Part shown: positions 36,502 through 36,805 of the stretch, in pieces | Numbering within the stretch: position 1 is the first letter of the stretch | Layout of the letters: each line of letters starts with the position of its first letter | Sequence record: NC_054919.1 | Length of the DNA: 64,000 nucleotides | Direction: 5' to 3' (one strand) | Source of the DNA: Escherichia phage vB_EcoM_G4507 | The notes under the pieces: model-generated | Seen by the model: only the letters and a program-made list of their open reading frames with translations | What the model was told of the DNA's origin: nothing | The model's database searches: none | Made by a program: the position numbers and the translations under genes

Positions 36502-36805
36502 TAAGCCTTGCGGCAACCTTGTCGGGGTTCCACCTGCTAAGGCAAGTGTTTGTACGAAACGCCGGGATTCGAACCCGGTTATTAAGTAGTTGACGCTACT
36601 CAATATTTTAAAAGGCCATATCTCGACCATATCCGAACGTTCCGTCAAAAACGCTACTCGGTTTACGGCAAAGATATTTCCTCGAATCGATAATTCGGTG
36701 CGCCGTTTCTGCTGTGATAGTAAAGAGCCAGAACACAGTAAAACTGTGGGAGGAAACTATACTCCAGGGAACATCAGTCCGACGACTTACCGGTAGCGAC
36801 CCGGT
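36502..36805 (-). ncRNA. Candidate stable small RNA(s) downstream of tRNA cluster (T4 species-1/2-like)
   Basis: GC-rich non-coding island with tRNA-like T-arm CCGGGTTCGAATCCCGG but no full cloverleaf; bounded 3' by terminator hairpin. Confidence 0.35.

What the first reader, a model, noticed from the sequence alone, without database searches (positions are those of the whole stretch)
36502..36805. GC-rich non-coding island downstream of the tRNA array: candidate stable RNAs
About 300 nt with no credible ORF and markedly higher GC than the flanks. It contains a tRNA-like T-arm (CCGGGTTCGAATCCCGG on the minus strand) but no complete cloverleaf. It lies between ORF 36809-37159 and a terminator, which is consistent with the small stable RNAs (species 1 and 2) reported at the distal end of the T4 tRNA region, or with tRNA remnants.
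Basis: inference. Interest (0 to 1): 0.4.

Follow-up and report, generated by a model that had tools for sequence, protein, structure and literature searches.

The report
T4 rnaC and rnaD small RNAs
This GC-rich stretch holds this T4-like phage's copies of two small stable RNAs known from phage T4 since the 1970s (species 1/rnaC and species 2/rnaD); the locus is ordinary, although what these RNAs do is still unknown.

Summary
Window 36479-36812 (minus strand) aligns base for base with T4 rnaD (species 2), rnaC (species 1), a conserved 3' trailer and the operon terminator. Identity to T4 is 97.8% for rnaC. For rnaD it is 98-100% in the flanks, but the apical hairpin is replaced. No Rfam family matches. 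ARAGORN's 94-nt "tRNA-Lys" inside rnaC is an artefact.

Comparative analysis used 35 distinct rnaC sequences from about ten genera of enterobacterial T4-like phages. It supports a tRNA-like four-way junction with:
- a 7-bp acceptor stem stacked on a canonical T-arm;
- a long irregular arm;
- a 10-bp arm.

27 of 52 pairs show compensatory changes. The two apical loops, UUGACG and CGUCAA, are exactly complementary and covary twice, which indicates a 6-bp kissing interaction.

In more distant genera rnaC sits directly between ordinary tRNA genes. One Klebsiella-phage clade encodes a U-CCA 3' end. Dhakavirus lacks rnaC but keeps rnaD.

Most likely both RNAs are cut out of the tRNA operon transcript by host tRNA-processing enzymes. 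rnaC probably acts as a compact non-decoding tRNA mimic. Function remains unknown. The locus is already known; interest is modest.

The parts
36697..36812 (-). rnaD (T4 species 2 RNA) homologue. The conserved sequence starts at about 36810 and overlaps the TAA stop (36811-36809) of the upstream ORF.
   Evidence: Alignment to the T4 rnaD annotation. The 5' 45 nt are 97.8% and the 3' 21 nt 100% identical to T4; the central part is 38.8% identical.
36789..36805 (-). rnaD 5' hairpin ACCGG-GUCGCUA-CCGGU (5-bp stem, 7-nt loop).
   Evidence: RNAalifold. The closing pair covaries: A-U in 7 sequences, G-C in 4, G-U in 3. The terminator scan also picked it up on the opposite strand.
36718..36766 (-). 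rnaD apical hairpin, hypervariable. At least four unrelated alleles occur among close relatives (window/G29 type, T4 type, RB69 type, SP18/VR25/Dhakavirus type).
   Evidence: Alignments A5 and A6; 38.8% identity to T4.
36691..36696 (-). 6-nt spacer GAAUUA between rnaD and rnaC. It is equivalent to the spacer that follows a tRNA 3' CCA end in phages where a tRNA precedes rnaC.
   Evidence: upstream contexts.
36553..36690 (-). rnaC (T4 species 1 RNA) homologue, a 138-nt tRNA-like four-way junction.
   Evidence: 97.8% identity to T4 rnaC. MFE z-score -4.07. Covariation. Covariance model R1 scores 161.2 bits here, the only strong hit in the window.
36683..36689 (-). rnaC acceptor stem, 5' strand CGAUUCG. 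It pairs with 36555-36561 (CGUUUCG) and includes two U.U mismatches.
   Evidence: Pair 3:70 is G-C in 18 sequences and A-U in 17. The U.U positions are Watson-Crick pairs in Tegunavirus.
36562..36578 (-). rnaC T-arm CCGGG-UUCGAAU-CCCGG.
   Evidence: Two of the five pairs covary.
36643..36648 (-). rnaC apical loop UUGACG of the long arm; first partner of the kissing interaction.
36590..36595 (-). rnaC loop CGUCAA of the 10-bp arm; second partner of the kissing interaction.
   Evidence: All 6 pairs are formed in 35/35 sequences, with two independent double changes.
36503..36552 (-). Conserved 3' trailer: hairpin CACUUGC-CUUA-GCAGGUG (36548-36531), then AACCCCGACAAGGUU (a decayed copy of the terminator) and a small GCC-GCAA-GGC hairpin.
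   Evidence: 94.9% identity to T4. Kept in Dhakavirus, which lacks rnaC. Hairpin pair G-C / G-U / A-U in JS09 and 348Ecol. Fold.
36474..36502 (-). Rho-independent terminator of the tRNA/rnaD/rnaC operon (10-bp stem, GAAA loop, U-tract).
   Evidence: Annotated as a terminator in phage G29.

Best explanation
The island is the distal end of the phage's tRNA operon. It encodes orthologues of T4 rnaD (species 2) and rnaC (species 1), then a structured trailer and the operon terminator.

Shown here:
- rnaC is a discrete, tRNA-gene-like module.
- It folds into a four-way junction. A 7-bp acceptor stem stacks on a canonical 5-bp T-arm. A ~60-nt irregular arm replaces the D-arm. A 10-bp arm takes the place of the anticodon arm.
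- The loops of those two arms (UUGACG and CGUCAA) pair with each other. The would-be anticodon loop is therefore occupied, so the RNA cannot decode.

Inferred from the anatomy, from its placement between tRNAs with tRNA-like spacers, and from my recollection of the 1970s-80s T4 literature:
- Both RNAs are transcribed as part of the tRNA precursor.
- RNase P cuts at the base of the rnaC acceptor stem (predicted between U36690 and C36689).
- RNase E and 3' exonucleases release and trim the 3' ends.
- The closed, compact fold makes rnaC metabolically stable.

My commitment on function is inference only. rnaC acts as a non-decoding tRNA mimic that binds or titrates a protein which recognises the acceptor/T-arm minihelix. 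That protein could be a host tRNA-processing or tRNA-targeting factor, or a phage partner. rnaD is a co-processed scaffold RNA whose hypervariable apical hairpin carries host-specific function.
For: Identity:
- The T4 annotation and alignments map both RNAs onto the window.
- 811 phage records match the region; some annotate it as rnaC.

Expression of the T4 orthologues:
- A northern blot detected RNAC. Its probe begins TCGATTCGAGG..., the same as the window apart from 1 nt.
- RNAC and RNAD were classed as late RNAs (PMC9697503).

Structure:
- rnaC MFE z-score is -4.07.
- Of 52 pairs, 27 have compensatory changes; 93.4% of cells are paired, against about 37-43% when partners are slid; 0/500 shuffles reach the observed value on four of the five measures, and 113/500 do on the fifth, further pair types.
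- The kissing helix is paired in 35/35 sequences. It shows A-U to G-C in the Klebsiella Marfa clade and C-G to U-A in Tegunavirus, and no one-sided change.

tRNA-like module:
- rnaC lies directly between ordinary tRNAs in Karamvirus, Kanagawavirus, Tegunavirus and Winklervirus, with 3-7-nt spacers.
- It is cleanly absent from Dhakavirus.
- The 3' tail is U-NCA-A in all sequences and U-CCA in the Marfa clade.

rnaD:
- Its scaffold is conserved and its hairpin is swapped between lineages.
- A convergent SNP arose in rnaD during adaptation of a T4-like phage to a semi-permissive host (PMC12685909).
Against: - No function has been demonstrated for either RNA in any phage (PMC3014915, PMC9697503, PMC12685909).
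- The mature ends in this phage were not measured.
- T4's annotated rnaC 5' end is one nucleotide upstream of the end I predict from the acceptor stem. Its annotated 3' end (..GUA) carries no CCA.
- The T-loop departs from the tRNA consensus in Kanagawavirus and Winklervirus (UGCAUGC, UGCAUUC). This weakens a strict requirement for tRNA-like T-loop recognition.
- The covariation cannot tell an intramolecular kiss from dimerisation, and it rests on two events.
- My retrieval patterns fixed part of one loop in the early searches. The two variant classes were nevertheless found by BLAST or by a pattern that left both loops free.
- rnaD has a poor thermodynamic signal (z -0.26) and little covariation (6 of 25 pairs).
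- The RNase P, RNase E and RNase III statements rest on my memory of old papers not held in the library.
Confidence: 0.85

Rival explanations
1. The region is a pair of decaying tRNA pseudogenes (tRNA remnants) with no function of their own.
For: It carries a tRNA-like T-arm and acceptor stem and lies in a tRNA array. Ordinary tRNAs score weakly (12-28 bits) against the rnaC covariance model, which fits descent from a tRNA.
Against: Decay would not preserve 52 pairs through 27 compensated positions across about ten genera. Nor would it keep two complementary loops invariant or co-varying. rnaC is 97.8% identical between this phage and T4, while the adjacent rnaD hairpin has been replaced. The T4 orthologue accumulates as a discrete RNA (PMC9697503).
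Confidence: 0.03
2. 36552-36645(-) is a genuine, unusual tRNA-Lys(UUU) with a long extra arm, as ARAGORN calls it and as some GenBank records annotate it.
For: ARAGORN call. Annotated as tRNA-Lys in phages G29 and G2133 and as tRNA-OTHER in G9062. The alternative 7-bp helix CGGAACG/CGUUUCG can form in T4-type sequences.
Against: The Rfam tRNA model gives no hit at E<=10. The alternative acceptor helix has no compensatory change and one pair is broken in 13 of 24 sequences. The same 3' strand covaries with the true 5' end of rnaC. The putative anticodon lies in the A/U-rich single-stranded linker.
Confidence: 0.01
3. The region encodes small proteins, as the 'hypothetical protein' features laid over it in many GenBank records imply.
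For: Stop-free stretches of 65-84 codons exist in the window. Several records annotate ORFs here.
Against: The open frames are not conserved in homologues (maxima of 42-69 codons in shifting frames). Length differences are not multiples of three. Substitutions follow base-pairing rather than codon periodicity.
Confidence: 0.01
4. The structures are only cis-acting processing and stability signals of the tRNA operon's 3' end. They would guide RNases or protect the transcript, and the released RNAs would be by-products without a trans-acting role.
For: The region lies at the operon's 3' end, next to a terminator and a conserved hairpin-rich trailer. No function has been found in 50 years. Dhakavirus does without rnaC.
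Against: In other genera rnaC sits in the middle of tRNA arrays rather than at the 3' end, so a 3'-end role cannot explain its conservation. The invariant, co-varying loops and the junction sequences (CGAGGA, GGCCUU, AAAAU) exceed what a processing signal needs. Convergent evolution in rnaD on a new host suggests a trans effect.
Confidence: 0.08

Closest known systems
Bacteriophage T4 rnaC (species 1 RNA, T4s001)
   Same: Orthologous. 136 of 139 aligned positions are identical. It has the same strand, the same position after rnaD and before the terminator, and the same T-arm.
   Different: Three substitutions or indels only. In this phage a 116-aa ORF (phrog_3355) separates the rnaD-rnaC pair from tRNA-Arg, whereas in T4 rnaD follows tRNA-Arg by one nucleotide.
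Bacteriophage T4 rnaD (species 2 RNA, T4s002)
   Same: Orthologous scaffold. The 5' hairpin and helix strand are 97.8% identical and the 3' 21 nt are 100% identical. Position is the same.
   Different: The central ~49-nt apical hairpin is a different allele (38.8% identity). This phage shares its allele with G29, ECP52 and similar phages.
Canonical tRNA (Rfam RF00005)
   Same: 7-bp acceptor stem directly stacked on a 5-bp T-stem with a UUCGAAU loop. One unpaired nucleotide lies between the 10-bp arm and the T-arm. It is embedded in tRNA arrays with tRNA-like spacers and has a U73-NCA tail.
   Different: It has no D-arm and no 7-nt anticodon loop. It is 138 nt long, with a 10-nt linker. There are two U.U mismatches in the acceptor stem. 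Most clades have no encoded CCA. The Rfam tRNA model does not match.
tmRNA tRNA-like domain
   Same: It works in a similar way in one respect: an acceptor/T-arm minihelix is fused to a large non-tRNA body, and it is a likely RNase P substrate.
   Different: ARAGORN finds no tmRNA and no tag reading frame. There is no G3:U70 alanine identity pair (the pair here is A-U or G-C). Most clades lack CCA. The RNA is far smaller.
Bacterial Y-RNA-like RNAs (YrlA, RF02553) and viral tRNA-like structures
   Same: Non-coding RNAs that mimic part of a tRNA and are handled by tRNA enzymes.
   Different: The YrlA model hits only the ordinary tRNAs of the array, not this region. The 5' and 3' ends here form the acceptor stem, not a Ro-binding stem. 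There is no pseudoknotted acceptor as in plant-virus TLS.
Fully paired 6-nt kissing hairpins (e.g. HIV TAR-TAR*, ColE1 RNA I/II; recalled from memory)
   Same: Two hairpin loops whose six nucleotides are all complementary, with closing pairs on both stems.
   Different: Here both loops belong to one molecule. Whether the kiss is intra- or intermolecular was not determined.

Membership tests
T4 rnaC (species 1 RNA) | Full-length sequence homology to T4 rnaC | tested here: met
   136/139 identical. Covariance model R1 scores 161.2 bits at 36549-36691(-).
T4 rnaC (species 1 RNA) | Location at the distal end of the tRNA cluster, on the same strand, upstream of the operon terminator | tested here: met
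T4 rnaC (species 1 RNA) | Accumulates as a discrete, stable ~140-nt RNA in infected cells | not testable with these tools
   Shown for T4 by northern blot (PMC9697503). No expression data exist for this phage.
T4 rnaC (species 1 RNA) | Conserved secondary structure | tested here: met
   Four-way junction plus kissing loops. 27/52 pairs are compensated and 93.4% of cells are paired.
T4 rnaD (species 2 RNA) | Sequence homology to T4 rnaD | tested here: met
   Both flanks are 98-100% identical. The central hairpin is replaced, giving 72.3% overall.
T4 rnaD (species 2 RNA) | Immediately 5' of rnaC in the same transcript | tested here: met
   6-nt spacer, same strand.
T4 rnaD (species 2 RNA) | Conserved, covariation-supported fold | tested here: inconclusive
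   6 of 25 pairs are compensated. The long-range helix is invariant. MFE z-score is -0.26.
tRNA (RF00005) | Cloverleaf with D-arm, 7-nt anticodon loop and T-arm that scores above the Rfam threshold | tested here: not met
   No RF00005 hit in 36479-36812 at E<=10. ARAGORN's tRNA-Lys helix fails covariation.
tRNA (RF00005) | Acceptor stem plus T-arm minihelix | tested here: met
   7 + 5 bp, contiguous and covarying.
tRNA (RF00005) | 3' CCA end and aminoacylation | tested here: not met
   The window encodes U-ACA, not CCA. Only the Klebsiella Marfa clade encodes U-CCA. Charging is not testable here.
tmRNA | tRNA-like domain plus a tag-peptide reading frame | tested here: not met
   ARAGORN reports no tmRNA. 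Rfam gives no hit.
YrlA / Y RNA-like (RF02553) | Match to the family covariance model | tested here: not met
   Sub-threshold YrlA hits fall only on the tRNA array at 37228-38006, not on this region.

The most novel reading that the evidence does not exclude
rnaC may be more than a T4 curiosity. It may be a widespread, structurally closed tRNA mimic of enterobacterial T4-like phages that Rfam does not describe. Its acceptor/T-arm minihelix would engage a host tRNA-directed factor, for example a tRNA-targeting defence nuclease or a processing or modification enzyme, as a decoy. In the Klebsiella Marfa clade the encoded U-CCA end would be matured and possibly charged. The hypervariable hairpin of rnaD would tune host specificity.
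Probability: 0.15. Interest if true: 0.7.

Novelty: already known. Interest (0 to 1): 0.3.

Why it matters
As a locus this is a correct re-identification of two genes annotated in T4. It mainly shows that many GenBank records mis-annotate the region as 'hypothetical protein' or 'tRNA-Lys'.

The comparative work adds something usable. RNA C and RNA D have had no known function for about 50 years. The work provides:
- a covariation-backed structure with a kissing-loop contact;
- a family boundary of about ten genera, with natural presence/absence variants;
- a clade with a CCA end.

Together these define precise mutants and natural controls with which the function could finally be tested. They would also justify an Rfam family.

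Tried and rejected
- Rfam at gathering and at E<=10 thresholds gave no family for the region.
- ARAGORN's tRNA-Lys(UUU) call was tested as an alternative acceptor helix and rejected.
- Antisense-target search: reverse-complement matches of rnaD and rnaC against both strands of the 64-kb window gave nothing of 12 nt or more, only chance-level 11-mers. There is no evidence for a base-pairing target within the window.
- The T4 late-promoter motif TATAAATA does not occur upstream of rnaD. The nearest copy, at 36472-36465(-), lies after the terminator and serves the next gene. The motif count is at chance level. By eye, a MotA-box-like TGCTTTA lies just upstream of rnaD, but its spacing to any -10 element is wrong, so I claim no dedicated promoter.
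- One collection scan used a mis-spaced pattern and returned nothing. The corrected pattern gave three false positives in coding sequence (L025-L027).
- A pattern that freed the whole 5' domain found no further homologues in IMG/VR.
- Literature: the 1970s-80s primary papers and Miller et al. 2003 are not held in the library. Statements about RNase P, RNase E and RNase III processing of species 1 RNA are therefore from memory.
- Reading rnaD as a (permuted) tRNA was considered. It has a T-arm-like 5' hairpin and an acceptor-like terminal helix, but the 3' 'CCA' is not conserved (ACC-A/G, ACA-A/G, AAA-G), so I dropped it.

Full report
**What is there**

The window comes from a T4-like phage (Tequatrovirus). 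The region is 100% identical to phage ECP52 and about 91% identical to T4. On the minus strand, a run of 11 tRNA genes (38192..37178) is followed by a 116-aa ORF of unknown function (36809-37159, phrog_3355). Then comes the flagged island, then a strong intrinsic terminator at 36502..36479.

The island is 48.0% GC against 35.1% for the window. Only 0.56% of 304-nt windows are as GC-rich. The long stop-free stretches in the window are not conserved in relatives, and region lengths differ by non-multiples of three.

**Identity**

The T4 reference record annotates rnaD ('species 2 RNA', 71053-71171) and rnaC ('species 1 RNA', 70908-71046) right after tRNA-Arg. Alignment maps them onto window ~36812..36697 and 36690..36553.
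- rnaC is 97.8% identical to T4.
- The rnaD flanks are 98-100% identical, but its central ~49 nt are only 38.8% identical.
- The ~50-nt stretch between rnaC and the terminator is 94.9% identical.

A search with the 331-nt region finds 811 phage records, and a few of them annotate rnaC. Rfam has no family for either RNA: nothing is reported in the region even at E<=10.

Recent papers still describe both RNAs as being of unknown function. In T4 they behave as late RNAs, and RNAC was verified by northern blot with a probe that matches the window sequence except for one base (PMC3014915, PMC9697503).

**The ARAGORN tRNA-Lys call**

ARAGORN reports a 94-nt tRNA-Lys(UUU) at 36552-36645, and some GenBank records copy this. 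The call uses an internal CGGAACG as the acceptor 5' strand. Across 24 homologues that helix has no compensatory change, and one pair is broken in 13 sequences. The same 3' strand covaries with the true 5' end of the 138-nt RNA. The call is an artefact.

**Structure of rnaC**

I collected homologues by BLAST and by pattern scans of IMG/VR and metagenomes. This gave 35 distinct sequences from Tequatro-, Mosig-, Gapriver-, Kanagawa-, Teguna-, Karam-, Winkler- and Moonvirus and from the Klebsiella phage Marfa/F48 group.

RNAalifold and explicit pair counting support a four-way junction made of:
- a 7-bp acceptor stem, CGAUUCG/CGUUUCG. It has two U.U mismatches, which are Watson-Crick pairs in Tegunavirus. 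Pair 3:70 is G-C in 18 sequences and A-U in 17;
- a 3-bp AGG/CCU helix leading into a ~60-nt irregular arm;
- an A-rich 10-nt linker;
- a 10-bp arm;
- one unpaired nucleotide;
- the T-arm.

Overall 27 of 52 pairs show double changes. 93.4% of cells are paired, against 37-43% with slid partners. On four of the five measures none of 500 shuffles reaches the observed value; on the fifth (further pair types) 113 of 500 do. The single-sequence fold has z = -4.07. A covariance model built from the alignment scores 161 bits at 36549-36691 and finds no second copy in the window.

**Kissing loops**

The apical loop of the long arm (UUGACG, 36648-36643) is the exact reverse complement of the loop of the 10-bp arm (CGUCAA, 36595-36590). 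All six pairs are formed in all 35 sequences. Two different positions show double changes and none shows a one-sided change:
- UUGAUG/CAUCAA in three Tegunavirus sequences;
- UUGGCG/CGCCAA in five Marfa-clade sequences.

The variant classes were retrieved by BLAST or by a pattern that left both loops free. I infer a 6-bp loop-loop contact that closes the body of the molecule and occupies the would-be anticodon loop. By helix counting, the long arm (about 21-22 stacked levels) and the stack of apical stem, kiss and 10-bp arm (22 bp) are similar in length, which fits a side-by-side closed fold. This last point is inference only, and an intermolecular kiss is not excluded.

**Context in other phages**

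In Karamvirus, Kanagawavirus, Tegunavirus and Winklervirus, rnaC lies directly between ordinary tRNA genes. A tRNA's CCA end is followed by a ~6-nt spacer upstream. Downstream, the next tRNA starts 7 nt after the acceptor stem.

The tail after the acceptor stem is U-NCA-A everywhere: ACA here, UCA in Tegunavirus, and a true CCA in the Marfa clade. Dhakavirus phage dhabil keeps rnaD and the trailer but lacks rnaC exactly. rnaC is therefore a mobile, tRNA-gene-like module. In Kanagawavirus and Winklervirus the T-loop deviates from the tRNA consensus.

**rnaD and the trailer**

rnaD has four structural elements:
- a 5' hairpin (36805-36789) whose closing pair covaries;
- an invariant long-range helix, GUCGUCG/CGGCG(C)AC;
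- an irregular central hairpin whose apex exists in at least four unrelated alleles among close relatives;
- a 3' end at the position a tRNA 3' end would occupy, but without a conserved CCA.

Thermodynamic and covariation support is weak. A published evolution experiment found the same SNP in rnaD in all lines of a T4-like phage adapting to host ECOR34 (PMC12685909). This hints that the RNA matters for host-specific fitness.

The trailer contains a 7-bp hairpin with a G-C / G-U / A-U series. It also contains a decayed copy of the terminator.

**How it most likely works**

Shown: orthology, non-coding nature, the rnaC fold and its tRNA-like minihelix, the modular placement among tRNAs, and the terminator.

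Inferred:
- The RNAs are made as part of the tRNA operon transcript. σ70-like matches lie upstream of tRNA-Gln, and I found no convincing dedicated promoter.
- RNase P cuts at the base of the rnaC acceptor stem.
- RNase E and exonucleases generate the 3' ends.
- The closed fold gives stability.

From memory (not checkable in the library): species 1 RNA carries T and pseudouridine in its T-loop, derives from a dimeric species 2-species 1 precursor processed by RNase P and RNase E, and is cleaved by RNase III in vitro. All of this agrees with the anatomy.

On function I commit to a non-decoding tRNA mimic that binds a protein which recognises the acceptor/T-arm. rnaD would be a co-processed RNA whose variable hairpin carries specificity. 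This is a hypothesis, not a result.

**Verdict**

The feature is real but already known, and the locus is essentially identical to sequenced phages. The added value is a structural and phylogenetic description that is absent from Rfam and makes the old question of function experimentally approachable.

Noticed in passing
window 37334-37447 (minus strand), between tRNA-Asn and tRNA-His: This 114-nt 'gap' in the tRNA array is a conserved structured element. Its fold z-score is -3.71. It is found at 79-100% identity in 354 phage records, always directly 5' of tRNA-His, including Jiaodavirus, Karamvirus, Gelderlandvirus and an Erwinia phage. RNAalifold on 6 sequences gives a 14-bp closing stem with compensatory changes (8 of 29 pairs). 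It has no Rfam hit and T4 lacks it. It may be a third small RNA or a structured tRNA-His leader.
   Followed up: partly
window 36502..36479 and 35945..35922 (minus strand); decayed copy at about 36529-36513: Nearly identical terminator hairpins (AGCCCCGAC-loop-GGTTGGGGCT plus a U-tract) flank the ORF 35953-36426 (phrog_2280). A degenerate third copy sits in the rnaC trailer. This looks like a cassette inserted together with its own terminator.
   Followed up: partly
GenBank records homologous to window 36479-36812: Most records lay 'hypothetical protein' CDSs over rnaC and rnaD. Others call it tRNA-Lys or tRNA-OTHER. Very few annotate rnaC and almost none annotate rnaD.
   Followed up: yes
L035 (Escherichia phage dhabil, Dhakavirus) 1480-1710: A natural variant retains rnaD, the trailer and the terminator but lacks rnaC precisely. 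It is a ready-made control for function studies.
   Followed up: yes
L036-L038, L041, L051 (Klebsiella phage Marfa/F48 group): rnaC here encodes a genuine U-CCA 3' end and the variant kissing pair UUGGCG/CGCCAA. It is preceded by a different ~60-nt GC-rich hairpin element (GGGGUGG...CCCACCCC) instead of rnaD.
   Followed up: partly
L004/L007/L018/L021 (Kanagawavirus), the ~120 nt downstream of rnaC: A sequence block conserved between Enterobacter and Edwardsiella phages (TTTATGATTTGTGTGGTGAAATTTGGTAGACACGACTGG...) follows rnaC. It is not annotated and may be another non-coding element.
   Followed up: no
window 37527-37613 (minus strand): ARAGORN calls tRNA-Tyr(GUA) here, but it does not reach the Rfam tRNA gathering score. 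Only the tRNA-Sec model matches weakly (25 bits), probably because of the long variable arm.
   Followed up: no
window 37412-37407 (minus strand), inside the pre-tRNA-His element: The element contains the hexamer UUGACG. This is identical to the rnaC long-arm loop and complementary to the rnaC CGUCAA loop. It is conserved in several genera but not in JD18 or Kc304. It is probably chance (about 3% expectation) but was not tested.
   Followed up: no
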